NCBI GenBank assembly: GCA_963741955.1
Contig: CAVUKB010000007.1
Span: forward strand, 28,246-92,245
DNA length: 64,000 bases
Direction: 5' to 3'
Origin: an uncultured Acidobacteriota bacterium
GTDB taxonomy: Bacteria; Acidobacteriota; Thermoanaerobaculia; Gp7-AA8
Shown here one piece after another: positions 3,560-36,657 of the stretch (position 1 is the stretch's first letter; each line of letters opens with the position of its first letter). The notes under the pieces were generated by a model. That model saw only the letters and a list, made by a program, of their open reading frames with translations. It had not been told where the DNA came from and ran no database searches. Both the position numbers and the translations under genes were made by a program.

Positions 3560-4420
3560 ATCATGGATCCGCACCGCTCGGGAACCTTGCAGGTTGAGGG
3601 GTGCGGATCCTCCGATCCGCGGCGAGAATCGCGTTCGAGCGCAATGAGACGGCGCTGTCGGCTGAGGCGAAGCCGCTCTCGCGAGACTCGCGCACTCCAC
3701 CGACGCTGCGCGCAACGCGACAGTCTCCGTCTTCCTCGGCTTCGACACGATCGTCGCCACTCGGGACCCCCGCAGATTGAGGGGTGCAGATCCTCCGATC
3801 TGCCGCGGACGTGGTGTTCGAGCGCAATGAGACGGCGCTGTCGGCTGAGGCGAAGCCGCTCTCGCGAGACTCGCGCATTCCACCGACGCTGCGCGCAACG
3901 GGACAGTCTCCGTCTTCCTCGGCTTCGACATGATCGTCGCCACTCGGGACCCCCGCAGATTGAGGGGTGCAGATCCTCCGATCTGCCGCGGACGTGGTGT
4001 TCGAGCGCAATGAGACGGCGCTGTCGGCTGAGGCGAAGCCGCTCTCGCGAGACTCGCGCATTCCACCGACGCTGCGCGCAACGGGACAGTCTCCGTCTTC
4101 CTCGGCTTCGACATGATCGTCGCCACTCGGGACCCCCGCAGATTGAGGGGTGCAGATCCTCCGATCTGCCGCGGACGTGGTGTTCGAGCGCAATGAGACG
4201 GCGCTGTCGGCTGAGGCGAAGCCGCTCTCGCGAGACTCGCGCATTCCACCGACGCTGCGCGCAACGGGACAGTCTCCGTCTTCCTCGGCTTCGACATGAT
4301 CGTCGCGGCGGATCAGAGGATCCGCACCCCCTCGGGGTCCCTGCAGGTTGACCCCCGAATTCCACCGACGCTGCGCGCAACGCCGCGGTCTCCGTCTTCC
4401 TCGGCTCCCCTCGCGCGGAG
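3560..4420. repeat. Intergenic tandem repeat array: 183-bp unit, about 4.6 copies. Each unit contains short hairpins, and the array is bracketed by a ggatccgcacc...ggtgcggatcc palindrome.
   Basis: Units start at about 3593, 3776, 3959 and 4142, exactly 183 bp apart, plus a partial diverged fifth copy. Copies are near-identical. ORFs through the array on both strands give repeating Arg-rich peptides and are unlikely to be coding. Confidence 0.85.
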
Positions 4421-4550
4421 TCGGCCGCGGGCGGGCTTTCCGAGGAGGAATCACGAACCCGCCGATCGCGAACTGGTCCGCAATTCGCATCGGCTCTGTC
4501 CGCCAGCCGGAACGTCAACACCTAAATCCGCCGTCGAACAGGAGCGTCGA

Positions 4551-6836
4551 ATGAGCACCGTCGAACCGCAAGCGCCCTCTCTCCCGGAGTTCGAAAAAGA
4601 AGTCGCCGAAACGCAGGAATGGCTCGACAGCCCCCGCTTCCGGGAGATCACCCGTCTCTACTCCGCACGACAGGTCGTCGAGCAGCGCGGCACGATCCGC
4701 ACGGAATACAGCGTCGCTCGCGACGCCGCGGTTGCTTTTTACGACCGCCTCCGCGAGCTCTTCCGCGAAAAGAAAGCGGTCACCACGTTCGGTCCCTATT
4801 CGCCCGGACAGGCGGTCGCCTTGAAGCGCATCGGAATCGAGGCGATTTACCTCGGCGGTTGGGCGACGTCGGCCAAGGGCTCGACCCACGAAGATCCCGG
4901 ACCCGATCTCGCCAGCTATCCCCTCAGTCAGGTCCCGGATGAGGCAGCGGTTCTGGTCCGCGCGCTCCTCGCGGCGGACCGCAACCAGCAGTTCCTTCGG
5001 TCGCGGATGAGCGAACAGCAACGGGCCAAGACGCCGGTCTACGATTTCCGCCCGTTCATCATCGCCGATGCAGATACGGGACACGGAGGCGATCCGCACG
5101 TACGGAATCTCGTGCGGCGCTTCGTCGAGGCAGGGGTGTCCGGGTACCACATCGAGGACCAGCGGCCGGGGACGAAAAAGTGCGGACATCAGGGGGGGAA
5201 GGTCCTGGTCGGATCGGACGAACAGATCAAGCGCCTGAACGCGGCGCGCTTTCAGCTCGACGTGATGCGCGTCCCTGGAATCATCGTGGCGCGAACGGAT
5301 GCCGAAGCGGCGACTCTCATCGACAGCCGCGGAGACGAGCGCGATCAGCCGTTCATCCTCGGCGCGACGAACGTGAACCTTCCCGCGTACAAGGCTGCGT
5401 TTCTCGCGCTGATGCGCCGGTTCCACTCACTCGGGGTGAAAGAACTGAACGGGTTCATGCTCTACGAACCGTCGGATGAAGAGATGCGGGACGCCGACGA
5501 GTGGCTCGAGCGGACCGGTCTGGCCGCCGAGGCGAAGGGAGCCATCGATCGGATCACCCGGAATGAAGGTTTCTCGGTCGATGCGCTCTTCGACAGCGTT
5601 GCGTCGCATCTGATCGAGATCTGGGAGGCGGAGGCGGGGCTCGAGACGTACAGCGAGGCGGTTGCGGACGTACTCGAGTTCCAGCAGAGCGAAGGCGAAC
5701 CGATCGAGATGACGCCGGAGGAATGGCGGATCTACGCGTCGCGCGCGTCTCTCTACGCGGCCCGGAAGACGGCGCGCTCGCTCGGAGTGAACATCGTCTG
5801 GAACTGCGAGCACGCGAAGACGCCGGACGGCTACTACCAGGTCCGTGGCGGAATCGAGTACGCCATCGCGAAGTCACTGGCTGTCGCCCCCTTCTCCGAC
5901 ATTCTCTGGATGGAAACGAAGACGGCGGATCTCGCCGACGCGAAGAGATTCGCGGACGCGATCCACGCGCGGTTCCCGGACAAAATGCTCGCCTACAATC
6001 TCTCGCCCTCCTTCAACTGGGATTCCACCGGAATGACTGATGACGACATGCGGGCGTTCCCCGGTGAGCTCGGTAAGATGGGATTCGTCTTCAACTTCAT
6101 CACCTATGGTGGCCATCAGATCGACGGACTGGCGGCAGAGGAGTTCGCGACCGCGCTGCGGCAGGACGGGATGCTCGCGCTCGCGAGGCTGCAGCGGAAG
6201 TTCCGGCTGGTCGAGTCGCCGTACCGCACGCCCCAGACGCTGGTCGGCGGCCCCCGTCTCGATGCCGCGCTCGCCGCATCGTCCGGCCGGACCGCCACCA
6301 CGAAGGCGATGGGGAAAGGATCGACGCAGCACCAGCATCTGATCCAGACCGAAGTCCCGAAGAAGCTGCTCGAGGAGTGGCTCGGAATGTGGGCCGACTA
6401 CTACCAGCTGCGAGGACCTCTCACCGTGGATCTGAGGCCGCAGCGGGCGGGGTCAGAGCTTCTGGAGCTGGCCATCGTGCGCAGCGACGAGAAGGAGGCG
6501 AACGTCATCTTCGCACCGATCCTGGACCGGCGGGAACGGACGATTCTTTCCGTACGCGACCAGAACACGTTCGACGAAGAGCTTCGAAGAAAGCGGCTGA
6601 TGACGCTGATCCACCTCTTCCTGATCCACCGCTACAAAGCCGAGTCGGTGCACTACGTCACTCCGACCGAGGACAACCAGTACCAGACCTCGAAGATGAA
6701 GTCGCACGGGATCTTCAGCCAGGTGAACACGGAGGTGGGACAGATCATCGTTGCGGATGTGAATCACCCGCGGATCGCCGAGCTCCTCGCGCCGGACCGC
6801 GAAGCTCTGTGGAAGTTGATCCGGAAAGAGGGGTAG
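4551..6836 (+). CDS. aceA: Isocitrate lyase, long form (ICL2/AceAb-like, about 761 aa)
   Basis: [12 protein letters not shown] catalytic signature. N-terminal MSTVEPQ... typical of ICL. ATG at 4551 with a GGAG RBS. The track ORF from 4296 is an upstream extension into the repeat array. Confidence 0.9.
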
Positions 6837-8698: not shown

Positions 8699-9982
8699 AT
8701 GGCTGCCAACAACAACGCTTTCGTCACCGCGCAACGCCAGTTCGACCGGGTCGCCGACATGCTGGAGCTCGACGCTTCCACCCGTGCGCTCCTTCGCTGG
8801 CCTCTGCGCGAATATCACTTCGCCGTTCCGGTTCGCATGGACGACGGGAAAGTCGAGATCTTCCGCGGCTTCCGCGTACAGCACAACGACGCCCGTGGCC
8901 CGGGGAAGGGCGGCATCCGCTTCCACCCCGCCGAGACCATCGACACGGTCCGCGCCCTGGCGATGTGGATGACGTGGAAGTGCGCCGTCGTCGACATCCC
9001 GCTCGGTGGGAGTAAAGGTGGGGTGATCGTCGACGCCCACAATCTCAGCGCCCGTGAGACCGAATCGCTCTGCCGCGGGTGGGTGCGGCAGATCGCCCGT
9101 GACATGGGTCCGTTCCGCGACGTTCCCGCCCCCGACGTGATGACCAATCCGCAGAACATGCTTTGGATGCTCGACGAGTTCGAAGCGATCCATGGCGGAC
9201 GGTTCCCCGGATTCATCACTGGAAAGCCCATCGGAATGGGCGGATCGCAGGGTCGGAAAGAGGCCACCGGGTACGGCGTGGTCTTCACCATCCGCGAAGC
9301 GCTCCGCGAGCTGAACATGGATCCGGAGAAGACCACCGCCAGCGTTCAGGGTTTCGGCAACGTCGCCCAATACGCGGTGGAGCTTCTCGGCAAGATCGGG
9401 GTGACTGTCCGCTGCGTTTCGAGCTGGGACCAGTCGGAGCAGAAGTCGTTCACCTTCCGTCGCGAGAGCGGCGTCGATTTCGCCGAGCTGCTGAAGATCA
9501 CCAGCCCGTTCGGTGAGATCGACCGTGCGAAGGCGACGAAGCTCGGCTACGAGGTGCTTCCGGCCGAAGCCTGGATCGAGCAGGACGTCGATATCCTCGT
9601 TCCTGCGGCGCTCGAACATCAGATCACGGAAGAAAACGTAGGGAAGATCAGCGCCCGGGTCCGGATCATCGCCGAGGGAGCCAATGGCCCGACGACGATG
9701 GAAGCGGATGAAGCGCTCGCGAAGCGGGGGATCTTCCTGATCCCCGACTTCCTGGCCAACGCCGGTGGGGTGACCACCAGCTATTTCGAGCAGGTTCAGA
9801 GCAACATGAACTACTTCTGGGAGAAGGACGAGGTTCTCGCGCGCCTCGACACGAAGATGACCGCGGCGTTCCATGCGGTCCTCGACGTGGCGAAGAAGCG
9901 GAAGGTCTCCATGCGCGATGCGGCGTACATCATCTCCATCAGCAGAGTGGCGCAGGCCTGCCGCGATCGGGGCTGGGTGTAG
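8699..9982 (+). CDS. gdhA: Glutamate dehydrogenase (Glu/Leu/Phe/Val dehydrogenase family)
   Basis: KGGIRFHP and GGSKGG motifs. About 427 aa. A GGAGAGGAG RBS lies before the ATG at 8699. Confidence 0.9.
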   Translation: MAANNNAFVTAQRQFDRVADMLELDASTRALLRWPLREYHFAVPVRMDDGKVEIFRGFRVQHNDARGPGKGGIRFHPAETIDTVRALAMWMTWKCAVVDIPLGGSKGGVIVDAHNLSARETESLCRGWVRQIARDMGPFRDVPAPDVMTNPQNMLWMLDEFEAIHGGRFPGFITGKPIGMGGSQGRKEATGYGVVFTIREALRELNMDPEKTTASVQGFGNVAQYAVELLGKIGVTVRCVSSWDQSEQKSFTFRRESGVDFAELLKITSPFGEIDRAKATKLGYEVLPAEAWIEQDVDILVPAALEHQITEENVGKISARVRIIAEGANGPTTMEADEALAKRGIFLIPDFLANAGGVTTSYFEQVQSNMNYFWEKDEVLARLDTKMTAAFHAVLDVAKKRKVSMRDAAYIISISRVAQACRDRGWV

Positions 9983-9998
9983 AAGAGAAGACGGTCCA

Positions 9999-10159
9999 GG
10001 AGTCTGCGCGGTAGAAACTGTCCTACTGCGAAAACGGATCAGCGGTCCAGATCCGTCCGGATTTTCGGCGAGTAGCCACCGCTACGCACCTCAAATTCGA
10101 ACGAAGTTGGCCTCGCTGCTCCGCCTTCTCGCGACGGACGTTCCTACCGTGCAGACTCC
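9999..10159 (+). mobile_element. MITE (A-type, about 161 bp) with 16-20-bp TIRs ggagtctgcgcggtagaaac / gtt(c/t)ctaccg(t/c)gcagactcc. Copy 1.
   Basis: Near-identical copies at 26272..26432 and 36393..36553. Its TIRs match the ends of the IS at 34798..36390. Confidence 0.8.
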
Positions 10160-10337
10160 TCGGCTCGCAAAGTTCCGGATTCGGAGCGAAGATGGGAAGC
10201 AGGAGCGGGCCGCGCGAGCGCGCGGTCCGTTCCGCCCCCTGAGCGTTCAGGCGAAGGGGAGGATTCGATCCGGGCTGAGATCGGAGTCGCCAAGGCGGAC
10301 GGGTCCGGCTCCCTGAGAGAGCCCTCGAGAGGGCCGC

Positions 10338-12167
10338 ATGAAGAAGGTCACCGATCAGGACGTGCTCGACGGGGTCAGGTCTTTCGACCGGACGTTCTTC
10401 GATCCCTCTGCACGTCTGAAGGTGATCGGCTCCGGTTCGCTCGGAGGGAAGGCCCAGGGGCTGGCTTTCGCGCGGATGGTTCTCGACTCCTCGTTTCCCC
10501 ATGGCCGCTTCCCGCGAATCGAGGTCGGAATCCCAAGCATGACCGTCCTCCGCACGGGGGTGTTCGACGCATTCGTCGAACGGAACGGCCTCGGGAAATT
10601 CAGGGACATTACGACCGAGAGTTCATCGGAAACCGCAACATCGCGCCTGACTCCCCCCTTCATCGGGATGAGAGATGAACCGGAATCGGCGGAACGGTCC
10701 GACGAGGAGATCGCACGCGCGTTTCAACGTGGCGACATGCCGGTGGAAGTGCTCGGCGACCTGCGCGCGCTCGTAGAGCAGGTGAAGACTCCTCTTGCGA
10801 TCCGGTCGTCGAGTCTCCTGGAGGACGCACTCGGCGAGCCGTTCGCCGGCGTCTACCAGACCAAGATGATCCCGAACAATCAGCCGAGTCCGGACGACCG
10901 CTTCCGGCCGCTGGTGGACGCGATCAAGCTGGTATGGGCCTCGACCTTCTTCAGCGGCGCACGCCGCTACCGCGCGGCCGCGGCCGACATTCGCGAAGAG
11001 AAGATGGCGGTGATCATCCAGGAAGTGGTCGGTGACCGCTACGACCAGCGCTTCTACCCGTACGTCTCCGGCGTCGCTCGCTCGATCAACTACTATCCCA
11101 CCGGGCGCGCGCGTCCCGAAGATGGCGTCGCGAATCTCGCCCTCGGTCTCGGCAAGACCATCGTGGACGGGTCGGTCTGCTGGACGTACTCGCCCGCGTT
11201 TCCCGCCGCCGCACCGCCGGTCGGGTCACCACTGGAGCTGGTGAAGACCACCCAGACGAGCTTCTGGGCGGTGAACATGGGGAAGCCCCCGGCATACGAT
11301 CCGATTCACGAGACGGAGTTCCTCGTGCAGCCGGGGCTCGACGACGCCGAGAACGACGGATCACTCGACTGGGTCGCGTCGACGTTCGACGCGGCCGCGG
11401 GGAGGATCACTCCGGGGATCGGACGAAGCGGCCCGCGGGTGCTCGACTTCGCCATGATCCTCGCCCTCCGCGAGCAGCCGCTGAACGACATCGTCCGCGA
11501 GCTCCTGACGCTCTTCGAGAAGTCACTGGAGGCCCCCGTGGAGATCGAGTTCGCGATGAGCCTCGAGCCGGCTCGCTTCGGATTTCTCCAGGTCCGTCCG
11601 ATGATGGTCTCCTCCGCGATCGTGGAGATCGACGAAGACGATCTCTTCGGTCCCGATGTTCTGGTGGCTTCCGAGCGCGTTCTCGGAAACGGGGAGATCG
11701 AGACGATCCGCGACGTGGTCTACGTTCGTCCGGACCGTTTCGACGCGAAGGAGACGCCCCGGATCGCTCTGGAGCTCGAGCAGATCGACCGGGTGGTATC
11801 ACGAACCGGCGGGCCGTATCTTCTGATCGGGTTCGGACGATGGGGGAGCAGCGATCCATGGCTCGGGATCCCGGTGAGCTGGCCGCAGATTGCGGGAGCA
11901 CGGGCGATCGTCGAAGCGATGACCACGAGGATGAACGTCGATGCGAGTCAGGGATCGCATTTTTTCCACAACCTGACCAGCTTTGGAGTTTCCTACTTCT
12001 CGATCTCCGCCCGCGGGCCGTACGCGATCGACTGGGAATGGCTCGAAAGGCAGACTGCGGGAGAGGAAACTGAGCTCGTACGCCACGTCCGTCTCGATGC
12101 GCCGCTGACGGTGAAGGTTGACGGACGTACGGGGCGAGGGGTGATCATGAAGGGCGGAAGGCGATGA
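10338..12167 (+). CDS. PEP-synthase/PPDK N-terminal-like ATP-binding (ATP-grasp, PF01326-like) domain protein without a phosphohistidine domain
   Basis: GSGSLGGKAQGL, IRSSSLLEDALGEPFAGVYQTK, MAVIIQEVVG and GVARSINYYP match the PpsA nucleotide-binding domain. The C-terminal domain is shared with the downstream paralog (GFGRWGS, GSHFFHNL). No GGxTSHAAIxARE swivel motif. Confidence 0.75.
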   Translation: MKKVTDQDVLDGVRSFDRTFFDPSARLKVIGSGSLGGKAQGLAFARMVLDSSFPHGRFPRIEVGIPSMTVLRTGVFDAFVERNGLGKFRDITTESSSETATSRLTPPFIGMRDEPESAERSDEEIARAFQRGDMPVEVLGDLRALVEQVKTPLAIRSSSLLEDALGEPFAGVYQTKMIPNNQPSPDDRFRPLVDAIKLVWASTFFSGARRYRAAAADIREEKMAVIIQEVVGDRYDQRFYPYVSGVARSINYYPTGRARPEDGVANLALGLGKTIVDGSVCWTYSPAFPAAAPPVGSPLELVKTTQTSFWAVNMGKPPAYDPIHETEFLVQPGLDDAENDGSLDWVASTFDAAAGRITPGIGRSGPRVLDFAMILALREQPLNDIVRELLTLFEKSLEAPVEIEFAMSLEPARFGFLQVRPMMVSSAIVEIDEDDLFGPDVLVASERVLGNGEIETIRDVVYVRPDRFDAKETPRIALELEQIDRVVSRTGGPYLLIGFGRWGSSDPWLGIPVSWPQIAGARAIVEAMTTRMNVDASQGSHFFHNLTSFGVSYFSISARGPYAIDWEWLERQTAGEETELVRHVRLDAPLTVKVDGRTGRGVIMKGGRR

Positions 12168-15100
12168 TCGACGAGAATCAGATTCCGATGGAGAAGCTCC
12201 TCAACGCTCTGCAGGAGCGGACCAAGGAGCTCGGGTGCCTCTATCGGGTCGAGGAGCTTTTCAGCCAGCCGGGGATCACGTTGCCGGAAATTCTGGAGGG
12301 GATCGTCCAGGCGATACCTGCGGGTTGGCAGTACGTCGACGTCTGCGAAGCTCAGATCACGATCGGCTCGCTGGTGGTGACTTCGCCGGGATACCGCGAC
12401 ACCCCGTGGACGATCGAGTCGCCTCTGACGGTGCAGGATCAGATCGTCGGGCGCATCATGGTCGTCTATCTGGAAGAGCGTCCCGCGGAGGATGAAGGAC
12501 CCTTTCTCAAGGAAGAGCGAAAGCTGATCGACACCATCGCCGACCGGCTCGAGCGTCGAATCCTCCACGAGAACCTCCGTCTGGTCTTCGAGCGCGAGCG
12601 GGAGAGAGCGACCACCGGAGTGGAGTGGCGGATCATCATCGACCTCCTCCGGAGGACCGACCCGAAGCTCCTTGCGCGCATCTCGCGCAAGATGCTCTAC
12701 CACCTCGCGTGGGCCGGCGTCGACGACGTCAATCCGATCATCGAAGATTTCAGCAACAACGCGCGGGAGGAAGGTGATCCGGAAGTCGACGAGAACCGAC
12801 CGCTTCCGCTCACACTGCGCCGCGACTTTCTCGACATGACCGAGCAGATCTTCGAGATCGCGGCGAACCACATCAGCGAATCGGAGATCCTGTCGAACAT
12901 CCAGAAGTGGATCAAGGAAGACCGTTCGGGCTTTCTGGTCCGCATCCTGGAGAATCCGGTCTCCTCGCTCGCCGAGATCACCAACGCCATCGAGCGTTTC
13001 CATCATCTCGCCCCACAGGGGCTGGAGCTCTCGCTCCCGCGGGAACGCTCGTTCCGCGTCTCCCTGATCCGGCGACTCCTCAGCGATCACTCGGCGTTCA
13101 TCGGTGCGGCGAAGCACTTCATCGACGTCGACGACTTCTTCGATCTCCTCCGTCACGTGATCCATCCCGCCGGGAGCCACGGGAAGCTCGGCGGAAAAGC
13201 GGCGGGCCTGGTGCTCGCCTCCCACGTTCTCGAGCGCGACCACACCCGCTCCGAGATCTTCGGCGACGTTCGCACGCCGCGGACCTGGTACCTCACCTCG
13301 GACGGGATTCTCAACTTCATCGACAGCAATGATCTCGAAGAGATCGTGGAGCTGAAGTACGAAGATCTCGCGCGCGTGCGGCAGGAGTACCCGTACGTCG
13401 TTCACGTCTTCAAGAACTCCCCTCTACCGCCGGAGATCCTGAACGGTTTGTCCGTGGCTCTCGACGATCTTCCGGAGACACCTCTCATCGTCCGCAGCTC
13501 GAGTCTGCTCGAGGACCGGCTGGGGACGTCGTTCGCGGGGAAGTACAAGAGCCTCTTCATCGCGAATCAGGGATCGAAGCGGGAGCGCCTCGCGTCGCTG
13601 GTGGACGCGATCACTGAAGTCTATGCGTCGACGTTCGGGCCCGATCCGATCGAGTACCGGTCGGAGCACGGGCTGCTCGATTTCCACGAGGAGATGGGCA
13701 TCCTGATCCAGGAAGTAGCGGGAGCGAGGGTGGGACGCTATTACATGCCCGCGTTCGCGGGAGTGGCGTTCAGTCACAACGAGTTCCGCTGGTCGAAACG
13801 GATCCGCCGCGAAGATGGATTGATCCGGATGGTGCCGGGGCTCGGGACCCGTGCGGTGGACCGGATGAGCGACGACTACCCGATTCTGGTCGCTCCGGGG
13901 CAGCCGTCTCTCCGGGTGAACGTCACACTCGACGAGAAGGTGCGCTACTCGCCGAAGATGATGGACGTGATCAATCTGGAGACCAATTCACTCGAAACGG
14001 TGGAGGTCGATGATCTGCTGCGCGAGTTCGGCGACGAGTACCCGATGCTCCACCAGCTCGTCTCGATCCTCCGGGAGGACCGGCTGGTGCAGCCGACAGC
14101 GCTCGGGATCGAGCCGCAGAACGACCGGCTGGTGATGACGTTCGAGCGGCTGATCTCCGAGACGACGTTCGTCGAGCAGATCCGGACCATTCTCGACGTG
14201 CTGCAGCAGGAGCTCCGGATGCCGGTGGACATCGAGTTCGCGCACGATGGAAAAGATCTCTACCTGGTGCAGTGCCGGCCGCAGAGCTACGGCGCAGCGT
14301 CGATTCCGGCGGTCATCCCCCACGACCTCCCCCACGAGAGGATCGTCTTCACCGCCAAGCGTTACGTCTCGAACGGAACCGTTTCGGGAATCACTCACAT
14401 CGTCTACGTCGATGCAGATCGATACGACGAGCTCCCGGATCGGGCGGACCGGCTCGCGGTCGGCCGCGCGGTCGGGCGGCTGAACCAGATCCTTCCCAAG
14501 AGGCAGTTCATTCTGATGGGCCCGGGTAGATGGGGAAGCCGTGGGGACATCCGGCTCGGAGTGAGCGTCACGTACTCCGACATCCACAACACGTCCATGC
14601 TGCTGGAGATCGCGAGGAAGAGGCGCGACTACGTTCCGGAGCTCTCGTTCGGAACGCATTTCTTCCAGGACCTGGTCGAGGCGAATATCCGCTATCTGCC
14701 GCTCTACCCCGATGAGCCGGACGTGATCCTGAACGAAGATCTGCTCATCAGATCGCGAAATGCACTTCCCGATCTCCTTCCCGATTTCGCCCGATTCGCC
14801 GACGTGATCCGGGTCATCGACGTACCGGCTGAAACTGGAGGCATGACCCTCCAGGTCCTGATGAACGGCGACTCGGATGAAGCGATGGGTCTGTTGACCG
14901 AAACCACGCCCGAGATTCAGGAGCCTCAGGTGACCGCTCGGTTCAGTGAAGCCGTCCAGCGAGTCGACGACAGTCATTGGCAGTGGCGGCTCAGGATGGT
15001 CGAACAGATGGCGTCGGTGCTCGACGCGCAGCGCTACGGAGTTCACGCGCTCTACCTGTTCGGAAGCACCAAGAACGCGACCGCAGGCTCGGAGAGCGAC

Positions 15101-15379
15101 ATCGATCTCCTGATTCACTTCAAGGGTGAGGAACACCAGCGCCGCGAGCTTTCGGCATGGCTCGATGCCTGGAGCCTGGCGCTCGGACATCTGAATTACC
15201 TCCGGACGGGGAGGCGAATCGAACGGCTTCTCGACGTCCATTTCGTGACCGACGAGGACCTGCGTCGGAGAACGAGCTTTGCGGCCAAGATCGGGGCGGT
15301 CACGGATGCTGCCCGTCCAATTCCGCTCGCCGGAAGGGTCGGCACTCCGAGCCGCTCGGGACCGGTCACAGCTCCGTAG
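12164..15379 (+). CDS. Multidomain protein: N-terminal GAF-like sensor, PEP-synthase-like ATP-binding domain, paralogous C-domain, and C-terminal minimal nucleotidyltransferase (Pol-beta/MNT-like)
   Basis: ATGA overlap with the upstream paralog. GGKAAGLVLAS, VRSSSLLEDRLGTSFAGKYKS, MGILIQEVAG, GPGRWGS and GTHFFQDL are present. The C-terminal LFGSTKNATAGSESDIDLLIHF is a GS...DxD NTase motif. Confidence 0.75.
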   Translation: MIDENQIPMEKLLNALQERTKELGCLYRVEELFSQPGITLPEILEGIVQAIPAGWQYVDVCEAQITIGSLVVTSPGYRDTPWTIESPLTVQDQIVGRIMVVYLEERPAEDEGPFLKEERKLIDTIADRLERRILHENLRLVFERERERATTGVEWRIIIDLLRRTDPKLLARISRKMLYHLAWAGVDDVNPIIEDFSNNAREEGDPEVDENRPLPLTLRRDFLDMTEQIFEIAANHISESEILSNIQKWIKEDRSGFLVRILENPVSSLAEITNAIERFHHLAPQGLELSLPRERSFRVSLIRRLLSDHSAFIGAAKHFIDVDDFFDLLRHVIHPAGSHGKLGGKAAGLVLASHVLERDHTRSEIFGDVRTPRTWYLTSDGILNFIDSNDLEEIVELKYEDLARVRQEYPYVVHVFKNSPLPPEILNGLSVALDDLPETPLIVRSSSLLEDRLGTSFAGKYKSLFIANQGSKRERLASLVDAITEVYASTFGPDPIEYRSEHGLLDFHEEMGILIQEVAGARVGRYYMPAFAGVAFSHNEFRWSKRIRREDGLIRMVPGLGTRAVDRMSDDYPILVAPGQPSLRVNVTLDEKVRYSPKMMDVINLETNSLETVEVDDLLREFGDEYPMLHQLVSILREDRLVQPTALGIEPQNDRLVMTFERLISETTFVEQIRTILDVLQQELRMPVDIEFAHDGKDLYLVQCRPQSYGAASIPAVIPHDLPHERIVFTAKRYVSNGTVSGITHIVYVDADRYDELPDRADRLAVGRAVGRLNQILPKRQFILMGPGRWGSRGDIRLGVSVTYSDIHNTSMLLEIARKRRDYVPELSFGTHFFQDLVEANIRYLPLYPDEPDVILNEDLLIRSRNALPDLLPDFARFADVIRVIDVPAETGGMTLQVLMNGDSDEAMGLLTETTPEIQEPQVTARFSEAVQRVDDSHWQWRLRMVEQMASVLDAQRYGVHALYLFGSTKNATAGSESDIDLLIHFKGEEHQRRELSAWLDAWSLALGHLNYLRTGRRIERLLDVHFVTDEDLRRRTSFAAKIGAVTDAARPIPLAGRVGTPSRSGPVTAP

Positions 15380-15389
15380 GGGCGACCTC

Positions 15390-15530
15390 ACTTTCCGAGG
15401 ATCGGAAAAGCATCGCGGATCGAGGATTGAGGATCGCGGATCTGAAAAGCATCGCGGATCGAGGATTGAGGATCGCGTATCTGAGGAGCATTGGGGATCG
15501 GGGATCGGGGATCGGGGGTTGGGGAAAGCC
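15390..15530. repeat. Short tandem repeat: about 39-bp unit GATCGCGGATCTGAAAAGCATCGCGGATCGAGGATTGAG at about 2.7 copies, followed by (GGGGATCG)x3
   Basis: Seen directly after the stop of the 12164..15379 gene, in a convergent intergenic region. Confidence 0.7.
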
Positions 15531-15609
15531 CCGGAGGGGCGTTTGACAAGAGCCCGGGACGCAGTCGTGGGATTTCTGTATTCGCGCTCTGCCGCTCCGA
15601 TTGCTGGCA

Positions 15610-16455
15610 TCAGAGGAGCTCGCGCGTCGCTTCGTGCGGAGACTCCGGATCGAACCGGACCAGGGCGAGCTCCGGGCCGTCGTGTGCCGCACCGAGGATC
15701 GTCGTCGAACCGATCCGCTCTTTCCACTGGCCGGTGATCCGTGCGGATTCGTGGACGTGCCCGTGCAGGGTCACCAGAGGCTGAGATGATTCGATGAAGC
15801 GGCGGATCGCGATGGATCCGATGTGAGTGTCGAGCGGAACGTGATCGACTGCCACTCCGTCGAGCGCCGCGCGGTCGAGAGGCGTCTGGTAAGGCGGAGA
15901 GTGGAACAGGCAGATCGCATGCGAGAGATCGACGCCCTTCGTCAGCTCCTCGAGGTCGCGCGCGATCGTTCCGTACTTCACGTCCGACTCGTCGGCATCC
16001 ACGCTCCTCCACCCCTCTTCCGGTGAGATGCACCCCGGATCGACGTACCGCGATACGTCGTACCGCTCCCAGTCTTTCAGCCGGAATGGAGTCGGAGGCA
16101 CGCAGCAGTAGCCGAGAACGGGGGAGGACCCGAGGCGGCTGCGCCTCCGGTGGAGATAAACGAGGAGCCCTTCCGACTCCATCTCGAGCAGCTGCGACTC
16201 GAATTCGCGCGGGTCATCGTTTCCGAAGATGAGGAAGATTCGCGGATATCCCGATTGCAGGAGAGCTCGGAGCCTGCGGAGGCGCGGCGCGAAGTCCTCC
16301 CTCAGGAATGTCGCAAGAGCGCCCTGATGCGGCGCGGGAAGAATATCGCCGCCCATGAAAACCGCCTCGGGCCGCTCCGAAGCGATGGTGCGCACGAGCG
16401 CGTCATAGCGATGCGCGCTTCCATGCAGATCCGAGACGAAGAACGCGAGGGTCAT
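15610..16455 (-). CDS. Metallophosphoesterase (calcineurin-like phosphoesterase)
   Basis: FFVSDLHGS...GGDILP...FGNDD...GHVHE metallophosphatase motifs. ATG at 16455. Confidence 0.75.
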   Translation of the reverse strand: MTLAFFVSDLHGSAHRYDALVRTIASERPEAVFMGGDILPAPHQGALATFLREDFAPRLRRLRALLQSGYPRIFLIFGNDDPREFESQLLEMESEGLLVYLHRRRSRLGSSPVLGYCCVPPTPFRLKDWERYDVSRYVDPGCISPEEGWRSVDADESDVKYGTIARDLEELTKGVDLSHAICLFHSPPYQTPLDRAALDGVAVDHVPLDTHIGSIAIRRFIESSQPLVTLHGHVHESARITGQWKERIGSTTILGAAHDGPELALVRFDPESPHEATRELL

Positions 16456-16490: not shown

Positions 16491-19022
16491 TCAGGCGTGA
16501 TGGGTCGACATGACTTCGAGCGGGAGATTCCGAGCCAGCGCAGCCTCGAGCTCCGACTGCTTCGTCGGCTTCGACAGATAGTCGTCCATCCCCGCGGAAA
16601 GACACTTCTCCCGGTCGCCCTGCAGTGCGTGCGCGGTCATCGCGACGATCCGCGTCCGGTTCGCGCTGGTCTGTTTCCGGCGGATCTCGACCGTCGCTTC
16701 GTAGCCATCCATCACCGGCATCTGGCAGTCCATCAGGACGATGTGGTAATCACCGTTCAGGACCGCATCCACCGCCTCGGCGCCGTTCGTCGCGACGTCT
16801 GCCCGGTAGCCGAGGTTCTGGAGCTGCCCGAGCGCGACCTTCCGGTTGAGCGGTTTGTCCTCCACCAGGAGAATTCGAACCCGCTCTCTCACTTCCGGCG
16901 GCACCACCACGGGCTTTTCTTCGGAGGGCGGCCCCGCGGCCGCATCGATCGCCGGCATCTCGCGCGCGAGAACCGTGCTCAACGCATCGAAAAGATCGGA
17001 TGGGGCGACCGGTTTGTTGATGTAGGCCCCGATTCCTGCCGCCCGCGCCTTCGAGTCGTCGATGATCTCGCCGAGCGGAATCATCATCACCAGACCGGTC
17101 GACGCGATCGATGGATCGGCCTTGACCAGTCGGGCGAAACCGATTCCGTCGATCTCCACGAGTTGACGGTCGAACACCGCGATCCGGTACGGCTCGCCGA
17201 GCGAGGCTTCGCTTCGCAGCCGTTCGAGCGCTTCGGTGTAATCACCGGCGGCGCGGGTTCGCATCCCCCACGACGCGAAGATGTGCGAAAGCACCTTGCG
17301 ACTCGTTTCGCTGCGGTCGACGATCAGCGCCCGCATGCCGGGGAATCCGCTCTTCATCGCGGTGACCGTGATCCGTTCGGCAGTCTTCTTCTGAAACGGG
17401 ACGGTGAACCAGAAGGTCGAGCCGATACCTTCTTCACTGGTCACCCCGATCTGGCCCCCCATGATCTCGACCAGCTGCTTCGAGGTGGTCAGGCCGAGGC
17501 CGGTGCCGCTGTGCTCCCGCGTGCTGGAGCTGTCGACCTGAAAGAAGGGATCGAAGATTCTCGGGATGGCATTCTCCGGGATCCCGACGCCGTGATCGGT
17601 GATCTCGAAGCGGATCAGATAGTGGGAATCCGTCTCGTTCTGCCCGCGCACCCCGATCCGGACCGTGCTCTCCCCGCTGAATTTGATCGCATTCCCGAGA
17701 AGATTGGTGAGTACCTGCCTCAGGCGGGCGACGTCGCCGCGAACGATGGGAGGAATGTCCTCGTCGACTTCGGCGCGGATGGTGACCTTCCGCTCCATTC
17801 CCACCACGTTCATCACATCGACGATCCGCTGCACGCTGCTTCGAAGATCGAAGTCGGCCAGCGTGATGGAAAGCTTTCCCGACTCGAGCTGCGAAACGTG
17901 GAGGATGTTGTTGATGATGCCGAGAAGAGTCTCGGCGCTTCCCTGGGCGGTCTGCACGTAGTCGCGTTGTTCCGCGGTGAGAGTCGTACTGTCACCGAGG
18001 AGCTGGAGCATGCCGAGAATCACGTTCATCGGCGTGCGGATCTCGTGAGTGATGTTGGTCAGGAACTGCGACTTGGCGCGCGAGGACTCGAGAGCTTCGT
18101 CCCGCGCCTTTCCGAGCTCGATCTCCGACATCTTCCGTTCGGTGATGTCCCGGAAGATCACCCGGGCGAGGATCACGCTTCCGTTCACCACCTTCGGGAT
18201 GAGACTTCCTTCGACGATCAGCCTCCGGCCGTCCGCCGCGAGGAACTCGGTCTCCACTGTTTCGGCGACTCCGGTCCGGATGATCTGCTGAAACATACGG
18301 TTGAAGTCGGGGAGCGCATCGGGGTGGATCGCATCTTCAATCGTCGGTCGATGGAGCGTACCGTCGGCTCCCGCCAGCGTCTCGATCGCGGCCCGATTGA
18401 GGTGCATCAGCCTGCCGTCGGAACGGATGCTCATGATCATGTCATCGGCCGAATCGAACAGATCCTGGAAGCGCTCGTCGCTCTCGCGCAGCGCTTCACG
18501 GACTTCGGCAGTATCGGCGAGCTGGAGGTCGAGCCGCTCGAGACGGCGGCGAAGGTCGAGCTCAGCACCGACCTCGCGTGCGAGCGTCCGCAGCGCGTTC
18601 ACCTGTACATTCTGGAGTTGACGGGGAACCCGGTCGAACACTTCGAGCGATCCGACGACCATTCCGTCCGAGGTCACGATCGGCGCTCCGGCGTAAAACC
18701 GGACGTTGGGCGGGGCCGTCACCAGGGGATTCGAAACGGCGCGCGGATCCTTCTGTGCATCCTCGATGAGAACGACGTCGTTCGCATCGACGACGAAGCG
18801 CGCGAACGCGGCCTCGCGAGGGAACTGGCTCACATTCCAGCGGAATCGCGACTTGATCCAGTAGCGGTCCTGGTCGAGGAATCCGAGAATGGCGACAGGA
18901 GCTCCGCAGATCTCGGCGGCGAAAGCAGTCAGCTGGTCCAGGTGCGGCTCTGCGGGAGTGTCGAGAATGCCGCACTCCTGCAGGGTAAGAAGTCTCATTC
19001 GATCATTGGTGGAATCGGTCAT
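16491..19022 (-). CDS. Hybrid sensor histidine kinase (GAF/PAS, HisKA, HATPase, two receiver domains)
   Basis: H-box ITHEIRTPMN. G-boxes GTGLGL and DHGVGI. Receiver motifs ILLVEDKPLNRKV...VLMDCQMPVMDG. Confidence 0.85.
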   Translation of the reverse strand: MTDSTNDRMRLLTLQECGILDTPAEPHLDQLTAFAAEICGAPVAILGFLDQDRYWIKSRFRWNVSQFPREAAFARFVVDANDVVLIEDAQKDPRAVSNPLVTAPPNVRFYAGAPIVTSDGMVVGSLEVFDRVPRQLQNVQVNALRTLAREVGAELDLRRRLERLDLQLADTAEVREALRESDERFQDLFDSADDMIMSIRSDGRLMHLNRAAIETLAGADGTLHRPTIEDAIHPDALPDFNRMFQQIIRTGVAETVETEFLAADGRRLIVEGSLIPKVVNGSVILARVIFRDITERKMSEIELGKARDEALESSRAKSQFLTNITHEIRTPMNVILGMLQLLGDSTTLTAEQRDYVQTAQGSAETLLGIINNILHVSQLESGKLSITLADFDLRSSVQRIVDVMNVVGMERKVTIRAEVDEDIPPIVRGDVARLRQVLTNLLGNAIKFSGESTVRIGVRGQNETDSHYLIRFEITDHGVGIPENAIPRIFDPFFQVDSSSTREHSGTGLGLTTSKQLVEIMGGQIGVTSEEGIGSTFWFTVPFQKKTAERITVTAMKSGFPGMRALIVDRSETSRKVLSHIFASWGMRTRAAGDYTEALERLRSEASLGEPYRIAVFDRQLVEIDGIGFARLVKADPSIASTGLVMMIPLGEIIDDSKARAAGIGAYINKPVAPSDLFDALSTVLAREMPAIDAAAGPPSEEKPVVVPPEVRERVRILLVEDKPLNRKVALGQLQNLGYRADVATNGAEAVDAVLNGDYHIVLMDCQMPVMDGYEATVEIRRKQTSANRTRIVAMTAHALQGDREKCLSAGMDDYLSKPTKQSELEAALARNLPLEVMSTHHA

Positions 19023-19235: not shown

Positions 19236-19318
19236 TTCCCGGTAGGAACGTCCGGAGCGAGAAAGCGGAGCAGCGAGGCCAGATTCGTTCGGATTTGGGC
19301 CGCTGATCCGCTTTCGAG
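19236..19318 (-). mobile_element. Internally deleted remnant of the A-type MITE, reverse orientation, abutting the fdhD stop
   Basis: ggtaggaacgtccggagcgagaaagcggagcagcgaggccagattcgttcggatttg...gatccgctttcg matches the reverse complement of the MITE with about 45 bp of the centre missing. Confidence 0.55.
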
Positions 19319-26269: not shown

Positions 26270-26271
26270 TA

Positions 26272-26432
26272 GGAGTCTGCGCGGTAGAAACTGTCCTACT
26301 GCGAAAGCGGATCAACGGTCCAAATCCGCCCGGATTTTCGGCGAGTAGCCACCGCTACGCACCTCAAATCCGAACGAATTTGGCCTCGTTGCTCCGCTTT
26401 CTCGCTACGGACGTTTCTATCGCGCAGACTCC
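26272..26432 (+). mobile_element. MITE A-type, copy 2
   Basis: About 95% identical to the copies at 9999 and 36393. Perfect TIRs. Confidence 0.8.
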
Positions 26433-26446
26433 TAGAAGTCCGATCG

Positions 26447-36390: not shown

Positions 36391-36392
36391 TA

Positions 36393-36553
36393 GGAGTCTG
36401 CGCGGTAGAAACTGTCCTACTGCGAAAGCGGATCAACGGTCCAAATCCGCCCGGATTTTCGGCGAGTAGCCACCGCTACGCACCTCAAATCCGAACGAAT
36501 TTGTCCTCGTTGCTCCGCTTTCTCGCTACGGACGTTTCTACCGCGCAGACTCC
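36393..36553 (+). mobile_element. MITE A-type, copy 3, separated from the IS right end only by TA
   Basis: Junction gactcc-TA-ggagtc forms a palindrome. Confidence 0.8.
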
Positions 36554-36657
36554 TAGCGGCGAGGAGGGATTCCGCGACGTGATTCGTCCCTCCCGGCGGA
36601 GTCGCTGAACCTTCGTCTCCCTCTTCTCTTCGGATCTCATGCGATAATCGCCCGGTT

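What the first reader, a model, noticed from the sequence alone, without database searches (positions are those of the whole stretch)
10338..15379. Tandem, translationally coupled paralogs of the PEP-synthase ATP-grasp domain, the second fused to a GAF-like sensor and a minimal nucleotidyltransferase
Both proteins carry the PF01326-type nucleotide-binding domain of PEP synthase / PPDK / rifampin phosphotransferase (GGKAxGL, (I/V)RSSSLLED..G.SFAG, MA/GI(I/L)IQEV). Neither contains the phosphohistidine swivel motif (GGxTSHAAIxARE) nor a PEP-utilisers C-terminal TIM barrel. They instead share an uncharacterised C-domain (G(F/P)GRWGS, G(S/T)HFF). The second protein adds an N-terminal GAF-like module and a C-terminal Pol-beta-type NTase (LFGSTKNATAGSESDIDLLIHF). 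A sensor, an ATP-grasp dikinase-like domain and a nucleotidyltransferase in one coupled module is not a described pathway enzyme. It could be a signal-regulated small-molecule or protein nucleotidylation/phosphorylation system, or an antibiotic-inactivating (RPH-like) module.
Basis: partly seen in the sequence, partly recalled or inferred. Interest (0 to 1): 0.7.

Follow-up and report, generated by a model that had tools for sequence, protein, structure and literature searches.

The report
Sensor-gated dikinase-like pair beside glutamate dehydrogenase
Two coupled, PEP-synthase-like enzymes that lack the pyruvate-binding part (one also carries a GAF sensor and a small nucleotidyltransferase) sit next to a glutamate dehydrogenase, and usually a phosphoesterase, in hundreds of bacterial species; this undescribed module most likely controls glutamate dehydrogenase and is often mis-annotated as PEP synthase or PPDK.

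Summary

Two things change the picture.

Second, the pair belongs to a conserved module: glutamate dehydrogenase, then A, then B, then usually a convergent metallophosphoesterase. At least 594 species-level genomes from more than 15 phyla encode B relatives. GDH lies directly upstream on the same strand in 61 of 65 informative loci. A+B fusions exist. A receiver-domain paralogue lies beside a different class of GDH.

Best reading (inferred, about 0.45): a signal-gated system that covalently modifies or regulates GDH. No description was found in the literature searched.

The parts
8699..9982 (+). Glutamate dehydrogenase (GDH1). The probable start is M at 8699 (427 aa); the ORF opens at GTG 8603. 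It is a hexameric family-II (Pyrococcus/Thermotoga-type) GDH.
   Evidence: Pfam ELFV_dehydrog_N + ELFV_dehydrog. PDB 1euz, E 2e-120. NCBIfam GdhA_Arch 470 bits. A 62-74% identical gene lies directly upstream of A/B in 61 of 65 informative loci.
10338..12167 (+). Protein A (609 aa): ATP-grasp plus swivelling C-domain, with no sensor and no NTase.
10437..11618 (+). A: PPDK_N ATP-grasp nucleotide-binding domain (residues 34-427). Motifs GGKAQG36, RSSSLLED156, IIQEV226, EIEFA402 and LQVRP417 are intact.
   Evidence: Pfam E 5e-34. Motif positions. The columns are nearly invariant in 41 sequences.
11658..12149 (+). A: C-domain (residues ~441-604), predicted swivelling beta/beta/alpha fold. It is a putative phospho-His carrier with GFGRWGS498 and GSH541FF.
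11958..11960 (+). Codon of A His541, the candidate phospho-acceptor histidine.
   Evidence: Invariant in alignments A1 and A3. His is present in 151 of 154 C-domains among 150 representatives clustered at 50% identity.
12164..12167 (+). ATGA stop/start overlap of A and B (translational coupling). A GGAAGG Shine-Dalgarno-like site lies 5 nt upstream.
   Evidence: In related loci, 27 of 65 have a 4-nt overlap, 12 of 65 have an 8-nt overlap, and most of the rest have a gap of 30 nt or less.
12164..15379 (+). Protein B (1071 aa): GAF, helical region, ATP-grasp, swivelling C-domain, linker, minimal NTase.
12188..12607 (+). B: GAF-fold sensor domain (residues ~9-148), with invariant C25 and C61 and the motif PFLKEERKL.
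12623..13162 (+). B: all-helical region (residues ~154-333) of unknown role. Its last ~75 residues are shared with the paralogues that sit beside the second GDH class; some of those carry a receiver domain and Pfam DUF5752 at the equivalent place.
   Evidence: Model secondary structure, pLDDT 50-90. tblastn B[265-918] matches in L011 and L074. DUF5752 in the L084 and L029 proteins.
13184..14290 (+). B: PPDK_N ATP-grasp domain (residues 341-709). GGK345, RSSSLLED444, FAG, IQEV, DIEFA689 and Q703-C-R705 are invariant or nearly so.
   Evidence: Pfam E 8e-56. Conservation counts in 42 sequences.
14342..14866 (+). B: C-domain (residues ~727-901), paralogous to the A C-domain, with GPGRWGS786 and GTH832FF.
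   Evidence: Alignment A3 of A- and B-type C-domains. Shared invariant residues: N, G-x-GRWGS-x-D, E, S-x-G-x-HFF, Y. BLASTP of A against B.
14657..14659 (+). Codon of B His832, the candidate phospho-acceptor histidine.
   Evidence: 42 of 42 conserved. Position.
14981..15313 (+). B: Pol-beta-type minimal nucleotidyltransferase (residues ~940-1050). G967-S968, D979 and D981 are invariant; the third acidic residue D1024 is present in 30 of 42.
   Evidence: Pfam NTP_transf_2 29.5-32.7 bits (cut-off 21) and Polbeta. Conservation.
15610..16455 (-). Metallophosphoesterase (MPE, 281 aa from M at 16455; the ORF opens at 16605), convergent with B. Motifs DLHG, GGD, GNDD and GHVH are present.
   Evidence: Pfam Metallophos E 8e-8. 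An orthologue (44-66% identity) lies within 3.5 kb downstream of B in 43 of 66 informative loci, 39 of them on the opposite strand. No close solved relative by sequence.

Best explanation
The finding is the core of a conserved four-gene module centred on glutamate dehydrogenase: GDH, then A, then B, then a convergent metallophosphoesterase.

A and B are paralogous 'dikinase cores'. Each has a PEP-synthase-type ATP-grasp domain followed, after a ~30-residue linker, by a strongly diverged swivelling domain. That domain most resembles the phospho-histidine carrier domain of PPDK, PEP synthase, Enzyme I and rifampin phosphotransferase, and it bears a near-invariant G-[ST]-H. Neither protein has the PEP/pyruvate TIM barrel or any other recognisable substrate domain.

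Proposed mechanism:
1. The ATP-grasp domain loads the carrier His (A H541, B H832) from ATP.
2. The swivelling domain delivers the phosphoryl group to an external acceptor. The most likely acceptor is the co-encoded GDH, or a protein that controls it.
3. B's N-terminal GAF domain gates this step in response to a small ligand. A carbon/nitrogen-status metabolite such as 2-oxoglutarate or glutamine is the obvious candidate.
4. B's C-terminal minimal nucleotidyltransferase adds a second, nucleotidyl modification.
5. The metallophosphoesterase removes the mark or marks.

Shown here: domain anatomy, paralogy, translational coupling and fusion, residue conservation, and synteny with GDH. Inferred: His phosphorylation, the identity of the acceptor, the GAF ligand, and the roles of the NTase and the phosphoesterase.
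For: Anatomy
- PPDK_N in both proteins, NTase in B, no PF00391 or PF02896.
- All ATP-grasp motifs are invariant in both families.
- C-domain model: pLDDT 89.6.
- The order of predicted strands and helices, and the position of the His (in the loop after the strand 'AIVEA', before a short helix and the next strand), match the canonical carrier domain (the comparison is my reading).
- The spacing from the ATP-grasp end (Q-x-R-P) to the first G-x-G hairpin equals that in E. coli PpsA.
- His is conserved in 151 of 154 C-domains across 150 representatives at 50% identity.

A and B act together
- ATGA overlap. Overlaps or gaps of 30 nt or less in most of 65 loci.
- Natural A+B fusions of 1520-1650 aa.

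Link to GDH
- Of 65 loci with enough upstream DNA, 53 have GDH then A then B, 8 have GDH then B, and 1 has a divergent GDH.
- The loci come from Acidobacteriota, Bacteroidota, Ignavibacteria/Melioribacter, Calditrichia, Planctomycetota, Anaerolineales, Myxococcales, Zixibacteria, Eisenbacteria, Krumholzibacteriota, Gemmatimonadaceae, Fermentibacteria, Delongbacteria, Spirochaetaceae and Neomarinimicrobiota.
- In a Phycisphaerae MAG, four genes including a Glu_synthase-domain protein and NuoE/NuoF/GltD-like proteins are inserted between A and B.
- A paralogous protein (receiver domain + DUF5752 + PPDK_N + the same C-domain) lies directly downstream of a different GDH class, the family-I NADP-GDH (NF006929, 740 bits against a cut-off of 536), in L084 and L029. 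Several other loci show the same GDH2 / A-like pairing by tblastn.
- Sensor domains (GAF, REC) on the paralogues fit regulators.

Eraser candidate
- Metallophos gene downstream in 43 of 66 loci.

Not mobile or defensive
- No relative in viral contigs.
- PADLOC hits only the NTase segment.
Against: - There is no direct evidence that GDH, or any protein, is modified.
- Sequence-based methods do not see the His-domain relationship: Pfam, a profile of the C-domain against PDB sequences, hhalign against an 8-sequence swivel alignment (probability 1.8%), and Foldseek against PDB (no hit at E<=0.001). An extended hhalign of the whole A family against PpsA stays collinear only as far as the first hairpin of the C-domain and does not place H541 on the PpsA catalytic His.
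- I could not obtain residue-level superpositions, so equating H541/H832 with the catalytic His rests on topology.
- The very high conservation (50-73% identity over 1071 aa across phyla) is more typical of metabolic enzymes than of regulators.
- The synteny would be explained equally well by a small-molecule reaction on glutamate or 2-oxoglutarate.
- The phosphoesterase is missing from 23 of 66 loci, and B lies away from GDH in 3 of 65.
- The NTase's third acidic residue is not invariant (30 of 42).
Confidence: 0.45

Rival explanations
1. Metabolic enzyme. A/B is a heteromeric ATP-dependent dikinase that phosphorylates (and perhaps nucleotidylates) a small molecule at the glutamate / 2-oxoglutarate / ammonia node, for example a 2-oxo acid or a cofactor used by GDH. 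The acceptor would bind at the ATP-grasp / His-domain interface or on GDH itself. The metallophosphoesterase would recycle the product.
For: - Known PPDK_N enzymes recalled from the literature act on small molecules (pyruvate, rifampin, glucan, phenol, prodigiosin precursors). NCBIfam's nearest models are PEP-synthase-like, PigC and RedH.
- Conservation across phyla is very high, as for enzymes.
- Both GDH classes make the same metabolites, so the double synteny fits this reading too.
- Glutamate-synthase-type genes are inserted in the cluster in L006.
Against: - There is no substrate-binding domain of the kind seen in the structurally characterised relatives: no TIM barrel, no RIF-binding-type domain.
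- The ATP-grasp region is only ~80 residues longer than the Pfam model, and ~27 of those residues are an insert specific to the window protein that is absent from P0110.
- GAF and REC sensor domains on paralogues and a protein-type minimal NTase are more typical of regulators.
- No biosynthetic or transport genes are conserved around the module.
Confidence: 0.25
2. The C-domain is not a phosphoryl carrier. The ATP-grasp domains would act directly (as ATP sensors, ATPases or ligases), and the conserved His and GRWGS loop would serve ligand binding or protein-protein contact, for example docking on the GDH hexamer as an allosteric, non-covalent regulator.
For: HMM, profile-profile and Foldseek searches all fail to link the C-domain to PF00391-type domains. 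The PROSITE-type signature G-[GA]-x-[TN]-x-H (recalled from memory) is not matched by S-Q-G-S-H / S-F-G-T-H.
Against: - The domain sits exactly where the carrier domain sits in PpsA and RPH, with the same linker length.
- The His is preceded by Ser/Thr, as in the canonical T-S-H, and is conserved in 151 of 154.
Confidence: 0.15
3. RPH-like antibiotic or xenobiotic phosphotransferase.
For: The weak best PDB sequence hits are to the ATP-grasp domain of Listeria rifampin phosphotransferase (5hv6, E ~0.01). Like RPH, the proteins lack the TIM barrel.
Against: - NCBIfam RIF_Ptrans_rph scores 27.8 bits against a cut-off of 999.
- There is no ~430-residue rifampin-binding domain between the ATP-grasp and the C-domain.
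- The context is conserved, chromosomal and housekeeping, next to GDH, in more than 15 phyla.
Confidence: 0.03
4. Toxin-antitoxin or anti-phage defence module built on an MNT-type nucleotidyltransferase.
For: The NTase segment hits PADLOC PDC-S09 models (E 3e-8) and, below cut-off, NCBIfam MntA antitoxin (24 bits against 60).
Against: - Only ~40 residues match.
- No HEPN partner appeared in the Pfam-annotated neighbourhoods examined.
- No relatives in viral contigs.
- Synteny is stable and centred on a core metabolic gene.
Confidence: 0.02
5. Ordinary PEP synthase or PPDK, split or truncated, as many database records name it.
For: Source annotations include 'pyruvate, phosphate dikinase', 'phosphoenolpyruvate synthase' and 'pyruvate, water dikinase'.
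Against: - PEP_synth / PRK06464 scores are 26-55 bits against cut-offs of 598-740.
- No PF02896 TIM barrel and no PF00391 domain.
- The full-length architecture is conserved in at least 594 species, so these are not fragments.
Confidence: 0.02

Closest known systems
PEP synthase (PpsA) / pyruvate phosphate dikinase (PPDK)
   Same: PPDK_N ATP-grasp with all nucleotide-binding motifs. It is followed, after a linker of the same length, by a swivelling beta/beta/alpha domain carrying a conserved [ST]-H.
   Different: No PEP/pyruvate TIM barrel (PF02896). The carrier-like domain is too diverged for PF00391, HMM or hhalign and has an extra ~20-residue helix and a GRWGS loop. There are extra GAF, helical and NTase modules. 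Equivalog scores are far below cut-off.
Rifampin phosphotransferase (RPH) and PRK06241-type PEP-synthase-like kinases (also PigC/RedH)
   Different: RPH has a large substrate-binding domain between the ATP-grasp and the His domain; A and B have none. RPH is a stand-alone resistance enzyme, not part of a GDH module.
Enzyme I-Ntr (PtsP): GAF + phospho-His carrier + PEP-binding domain
   Different: PtsP is charged from PEP through a TIM barrel; A and B would be charged from ATP through an ATP-grasp. There is no HPr/NPr-binding subdomain, and an NTase is added.
GlnE (glutamine synthetase adenylyltransferase) and GlnD (PII uridylyltransferase)
   Same: Pol-beta-superfamily nucleotidyltransferases that reversibly modify a central nitrogen-assimilation enzyme or its regulator in response to glutamine and 2-oxoglutarate. 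This is the functional analogy proposed here for GDH.
   Different: No sequence relationship beyond the NTase superfamily. GlnE and GlnD have no ATP-grasp or His-carrier part. Removal is by a second NTase domain (GlnE) or an HD domain (GlnD), not by a metallophosphoesterase. No target modification is shown here.
MntA-type minimal nucleotidyltransferases (type VII toxin-antitoxin systems)
   Same: Same minimal NTase core with GS...DxD.
   Different: Here it is a C-terminal domain of a 1071-aa protein. There is no HEPN partner, and the MntA model scores below cut-off (24 bits against 60).

Membership tests
PEP synthase / PPDK (pyruvate, water / phosphate dikinase) | N-terminal PPDK_N ATP-grasp nucleotide-binding domain (PF01326) | tested here: met
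   A: E 5e-34, 118 bits. B: E 8e-56, 190 bits. Cut-off 27.
PEP synthase / PPDK (pyruvate, water / phosphate dikinase) | PEP-utilisers mobile phospho-His domain (PF00391) with the signature G-[GA]-x-[TN]-x-H | tested here: not met
PEP synthase / PPDK (pyruvate, water / phosphate dikinase) | C-terminal PEP/pyruvate-binding TIM barrel (PF02896) | tested here: not met
   No hit in A or B. A ends right after the C-domain, and in B the C-domain is followed by the NTase.
PEP synthase / PPDK (pyruvate, water / phosphate dikinase) | Score above the NCBIfam equivalog cut-off (TIGR01418, PRK06464) | tested here: not met
   26-55 bits against cut-offs of 598-740.
Swivelling phospho-histidine carrier domain (fold level) | Swivelling beta/beta/alpha fold placed directly after the ATP-grasp domain | tested here: met
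Swivelling phospho-histidine carrier domain (fold level) | A conserved histidine structurally equivalent to the catalytic His, and phosphorylated | tested here: inconclusive
   His is conserved in 151 of 154 and lies in the topologically equivalent loop. No residue-level superposition was available, Foldseek was negative, and phosphorylation cannot be tested in silico.
Rifampin phosphotransferase (RPH) | Rifampin-binding domain between the ATP-grasp and the His domain; equivalog score | tested here: not met
   NF041857 scores 27.8 bits against a cut-off of 999, and only for B. Only a ~30-residue linker separates the ATP-grasp end from the C-domain.
GAF domain | GAF fold (a long N-terminal helix, an antiparallel sheet, and a long C-terminal helix) | tested here: met
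GAF domain | Pfam GAF model above the gathering score | tested here: not met
   PF01590 scores 13.2 bits against 22.4, E 0.14.
Pol-beta minimal nucleotidyltransferase (NTP_transf_2) | HMM match above cut-off, plus the GS and DxD catalytic motifs | tested here: met
   PF01909 scores 29.5-32.7 bits against a cut-off of 21. G967, S968 and D979 are 42 of 42; D981 is 41 of 42.
Pol-beta minimal nucleotidyltransferase (NTP_transf_2) | Third catalytic carboxylate | tested here: inconclusive
   D1024 is conserved in 30 of 42 sequences only.
MntA/HepT type VII toxin-antitoxin system; PADLOC PDC-S09 | Stand-alone MNT with an adjacent HEPN toxin; equivalog score | tested here: not met
   NF047752 scores 24 bits against 60. 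PADLOC matches ~40 residues only. Neighbouring genes are GDH and Metallophos, with no HEPN domain in the annotated neighbourhoods examined.

The most novel reading that the evidence does not exclude
An undescribed covalent-control cascade for glutamate dehydrogenase. Two ATP-charged phospho-histidine 'protein dikinases' (A and B) would phosphorylate GDH. The one gated by a GAF metabolite sensor would also nucleotidylate it, and a dedicated metallophosphoesterase would erase the marks. This would be the GDH counterpart of the GlnE/GlnD system for glutamine synthetase and the first ATP-grasp / swivel-His enzyme with a protein substrate. It would be widespread in FCB-group bacteria, Acidobacteriota, Planctomycetota and others.
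Probability: 0.3. Interest if true: 0.85.

Novelty: new variant of a known kind. Interest (0 to 1): 0.68.

Why it matters
1. GDH is the hinge between carbon and nitrogen metabolism. As far as I know, post-translational control of it is poorly understood in the phyla that carry this module (Acidobacteriota, Bacteroidota, Ignavibacteria, Calditrichia, Planctomycetota and many candidate phyla common in soils and sediments). A conserved, sensor-equipped enzyme pair locked to GDH in at least 594 species gives a concrete, testable candidate for such control.

2. The module would extend the PEP-utilising dikinase family to a core that has no small-molecule substrate domain. It could turn out to be the first member with a protein acceptor.

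3. Practically, these genes are often annotated as 'pyruvate, phosphate dikinase', 'phosphoenolpyruvate synthase' or 'pyruvate, water dikinase'. They lack the pyruvate/PEP-binding domain, so such labels can put a false gluconeogenic or PPDK step into metabolic reconstructions from MAGs.

Tried and rejected
- Ordinary PpsA/PPDK: rejected (no PF02896 or PF00391; equivalog scores far below cut-off).
- RPH-like resistance enzyme: rejected (no substrate domain).
- Defence or toxin-antitoxin system: rejected (only the NTase segment hits PADLOC/MntA; no viral relatives).
- Riboswitch or leader RNA in the long GDH-A spacer: Rfam found nothing there. The extra length is a dispersed ~163-bp repeat.
- Loci where B lies away from GDH (L035, L068): the neighbours are unrelated (MutS2, T9SS-tail proteins, a tRNA methyltransferase and others), so they gave no functional clue.
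- Contexts of receiver-type representatives P0288 and P0259: the contigs were too short to be informative.
- Comparison of cluster-linked GDH with Thermococcus GDH: this showed conserved Cys residues and two short insertions but no obvious acceptor motif.
- Literature searches (PPDK_N; DUF5752; GDH + PEP synthase + metallophosphoesterase; dikinase + GDH + NTase + GAF; GDH post-translational modification): no description of this module.


Full report

Yes. The window has ORF A at 10338..12167 (609 aa) and ORF B at 12164..15379 (1071 aa) on the + strand. They overlap by ATGA, and a GGAAGG Shine-Dalgarno-like site lies 5 nt upstream of the B start.

Pfam finds PPDK_N (PF01326) in A residues 34-427 (E 5e-34) and in B residues 341-709 (E 8e-56). 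It finds NTP_transf_2 / Polbeta in B residues 956-997 (E 1e-6). It finds no PEP-utilisers mobile domain (PF00391) and no PEP-utilisers_C TIM barrel (PF02896). This remains true when the isolated C-domains are scanned at E<=10.

A and B are paralogues over A 31-564 / B 338-855 (30% identity, E 2e-42). The similarity covers both the ATP-grasp and the extra C-domain.

Both proteins are 100% identical to proteins of a Thermoanaerobaculia (Acidobacteriota) MAG, on a 1.3-Mb contig, named only 'PEP/pyruvate-binding domain-containing protein'.

**2. The N-terminus of B is a GAF domain.**

The Pfam GAF model gives only E 0.14 (13 bits, cut-off 22). An AlphaFold2 model of B residues 1-340, built with 41 homologues, has mean pLDDT 75.7 and about 90 over residues 20-100. 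It shows a long helix, a second helix, four strands and a long helix over residues 9-148, followed by an all-helical region at 154-333.

**3. The shared 'uncharacterised' C-domain.**

An AF2 model of A residues 426-609 is confident (pLDDT 89.6, pTM 0.89).

- rank 1: the C-terminal domain of Geobacillus pyruvate kinase (2e28), which a PpsA swivel-domain query also recovers at E 3e-17;
- rank 2: the PPDK phosphoryl-carrier domain (2fm4);
- rank 3: rifampin phosphotransferase (5hv1);
- rank 4: maize PPDK (1vbg);
- rank 6: Enzyme I (5woy);
- Enzyme I-Ntr and another Enzyme I appear further down.

The domain lies immediately after the ATP-grasp domain. The spacing from the ATP-grasp end (LQVRP in A, VQCRP in B) to a G-x-G hairpin is about 30 residues, the same as from IVQARP to GRAIG in E. 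coli PpsA.

The order of predicted elements reproduces the canonical carrier domain apart from one inserted ~20-residue helix. That order is hairpin, (inserted helix), strand 'YLLIGF', loop 'GRWGSSDPW', strand 'AIVEA', loop with G-S-H, short helix, strand, and finally the 'VKVDGRTGRGVI' hairpin. It places the His where the catalytic His sits. This comparison is my inference.

The His (A H541, B H832) is invariant in the A and B alignments. It is present in 151 of 154 C-domains among 150 representatives clustered at 50% identity. The Arg of GRWGS is present in 153 of 154.

Against this, every sequence-based test failed: Pfam, a C-domain profile against PDB sequences, and hhalign against a swivel alignment (probability 1.8%). 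An extended hhalign of the A family against PpsA stays collinear only through the first hairpin. Foldseek against PDB finds nothing at E<=0.001.

My reading is that this is a strongly diverged phospho-His carrier domain, with probability about 0.65-0.7. It is not a member of PF00391 by any sequence criterion.

**4. What A and B are.**

Both keep all the ATP-grasp motifs: GGK, RSSSLLED, FAG, QEV, (D/E)-I-E-F-A and Q-x-R-P. These are invariant or nearly so in 41-42 sequences. So both are probably catalytically competent.

They look like the first two-thirds of a PEP synthase without the pyruvate/PEP-binding barrel. Unlike rifampin phosphotransferase, they have no substrate-binding domain in its place.

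NCBIfam's nearest models are PRK06241-type 'PEP synthase', PigC, RedH, PEP_synth and RPH. All score 20-55 bits against cut-offs of 500-1350. PDB sequence hits are marginal (RPH ATP-grasp 5hv6, E ~0.01).

B's NTase has an invariant GS and DxD. The third acidic residue is conserved in 30 of 42 sequences.

**5. The context is the key finding.**

In the window, a glutamate dehydrogenase lies directly upstream of the pair (probable coding range 8699..9982). A metallophosphoesterase lies convergently downstream (15610..16455, minus strand).

The same four-gene arrangement appears in Bacteroidota, Ignavibacteria and a further fused-form metagenome contig. Calditrichaceae and Phycisphaerae MAGs show it with other genes inserted between A and B. 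In the Phycisphaerae MAG the inserted genes include a Glu_synthase-domain protein and NuoE/NuoF/GltD-like proteins.

The best 80 come from Acidobacteriota, Bacteroidota, Ignavibacteria/Melioribacter, Calditrichia, Planctomycetota, Anaerolineales, Myxococcales, Zixibacteria, Eisenbacteria, Krumholzibacteriota, Gemmatimonadaceae, Fermentibacteria, Delongbacteria, Spirochaetaceae, Neomarinimicrobiota and one bin labelled Hyphomicrobiales.

tblastn of the four window proteins against these loci gives the following:
- Of 65 loci with enough upstream DNA, 53 have GDH then A then B, 8 have GDH then B, 1 has a divergent GDH, and 3 have no GDH upstream on the same strand. One of those three, L024, has a GDH and an A gene on the opposite strand upstream.
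- The GDH is 62-74% identical to the window's.
- The phosphoesterase lies within 3.5 kb downstream in 43 of 66 loci, on the opposite strand in 39.

The A/B junction is a 4-nt overlap in 27 of 65 loci and an 8-nt overlap in 12. Most of the rest have a gap of 30 nt or less. Natural A+B fusions of 1520-1650 aa exist.

**6. A second, paralogous module.**

Many of the same loci carry a second GDH, 30-34% identical to the first. NCBIfam identifies it as a bona fide family-I NADP-GDH (NF006929, 740 bits against a cut-off of 536).

In L084 and L029 it is followed directly by a ~1010-1080-aa protein made of a receiver domain, DUF5752, PPDK_N and the same C-domain. In L011 it is followed by an 860-aa relative in which Pfam detects only PPDK_N.

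So two different classes of glutamate dehydrogenase are each paired with a member of this ATP-grasp + C-domain family, and in several cases that member carries a sensor domain. This ties the family to GDH (or its reaction) specifically. The GAF and REC inputs are what one expects of regulators.

The C-domain family as a whole comprises 1605 clusters at 50% identity (E<=1e-3). In the representatives listed, the C-domain lies at or near the C-terminus of a protein; the exceptions are the A+B fusions (and B itself), where it is internal.

**7. Mechanism.**

Shown: domain anatomy, intact catalytic motifs, a conserved His, coupling and fusion of A and B, and tight synteny with GDH and, less tightly, with a phosphoesterase.

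Inferred (best explanation, about 0.45): ATP charges the carrier His through the ATP-grasp domain, as in PpsA, PPDK and RPH. Because there is no substrate domain, the swivelling domain hands the phosphoryl group to an external acceptor, most plausibly GDH or a GDH-controlling protein. The precedent, from established knowledge, is that Enzyme I's swivel domain phosphorylates the protein HPr. B's GAF domain gates the reaction according to a metabolite. B's NTase adds a nucleotidyl mark, in analogy to GlnE and GlnD. The metallophosphoesterase reverses the modification.

Rivals:
- A small-molecule dikinase acting at the glutamate / 2-oxoglutarate node (about 0.25). The very high cross-phylum conservation favours this reading, and synteny cannot exclude it.
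- The C-domain is not a carrier, and A and B act non-covalently or as ATPases (about 0.15).
- RPH-like drug kinase, toxin-antitoxin/defence module, or ordinary PpsA/PPDK (each 0.03 or less). These are contradicted and by the context.

**8. Comparison with what is known, and novelty.**

The module works like a dikinase (PpsA, PPDK, RPH). It fails the sequence-defined membership tests for those families on two of three defining domains. It resembles Enzyme I-Ntr in joining a GAF sensor to a swivelling His enzyme, and it resembles GlnE/GlnD in logic only.

Six full-text searches found no description of this module, of DUF5752, or of a GDH / PEP-synthase-like / phosphoesterase cluster. Database names are generic or wrong, for example 'pyruvate, phosphate dikinase', 'phosphoenolpyruvate synthase' and 'pyruvate, water dikinase'.

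I file it as a new variant of a known kind: a dikinase-type phospho-His enzyme with a new architecture and a new, conserved partnership. The more novel reading, a covalent-control cascade for GDH, is not excluded (about 0.3).

**9. Limits.**

The acceptor, the GAF ligand and the roles of the NTase and the phosphoesterase are unknown. All of the 80 best loci are MAGs, and the scan did not list any cultured carrier.

Noticed in passing
window 9998-10160 (copies at 26271-26433 and 36392-36554; partial copy at 19240-19297 on the - strand): The unusually long GDH-A spacer (355 bp here; only about 20-290 bp in the related loci) contains a ~163-bp dispersed repeat that is 92.6% identical to two other copies in the window. 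Its first ~21 nt recur inverted at the far end of the other copies, so it looks like a MITE/REP-like element with terminal inverted repeats. It is absent from the 86 related loci fetched by then.
   Followed up: partly
window 15399-15525: A tandem repeat lies between the B stop and the phosphoesterase stop: period 39, 3.0 copies, 88% matches (15399-15514). It is followed by GGGGATC x4.7 (15493-15525).
   Followed up: partly
window 15527-15571 (- strand): A sub-threshold Rfam match to the Acido-Lenti-1 sRNA motif (29.8 bits against a gathering score of 37, E 0.0011, full model length) lies just 3' of the metallophosphoesterase stop codon.
   Followed up: no
window 16491-19022 (- strand): A hybrid histidine kinase (GAF-PAS-HisKA-HATPase_c, with two receiver-domain matches) ends 35 bp upstream of the metallophosphoesterase start, on the same strand. 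This adjacency was not seen in the other loci whose genes were annotated, so it may be specific to this genome. It is notable because paralogues of A carry receiver domains.
   Followed up: partly
related loci L084 9125-13670 (-), L029 10050-14915 (-), L011 11885-15970 (+); also L023, L057, L064, L077, L085, L074: There is a second paralogous module: a family-I NADP-GDH directly followed by a ~1010-1080-aa protein with a receiver domain, DUF5752, PPDK_N and the C-domain. In L011 and L074 the partner is a B-like relative in which no sensor domain or NTase was detected. It is not present in this window.
   Followed up: partly
window 8699-9982 and GDH genes of loci L007-L086: The cluster-linked GDH subfamily has conserved cysteines (CDPH, CRGW, TCSYFEQ) and two short insertions relative to Thermococcus GDH 1euz. 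B also has invariant cysteines in the GAF domain (C25, C61) and in the ATP-grasp motif QCRPQ. A redox connection is possible but was not tested.
   Followed up: no
locus L006 10257-16630: In a Phycisphaerae MAG, four genes are inserted between A and B: a NuoE-like 2Fe-2S protein, a NuoF/GltD-like fusion, a ferredoxin and a Glu_synthase-domain protein. This places a glutamate-synthase-type enzyme in the same cluster as GDH.
   Followed up: no
window 4296-6836 (+): An unusually long isocitrate-lyase-family protein (846 aa, with two ICL stretches and a weak PEP_mutase hit) lies 1.9 kb upstream of the GDH gene.
   Followed up: no
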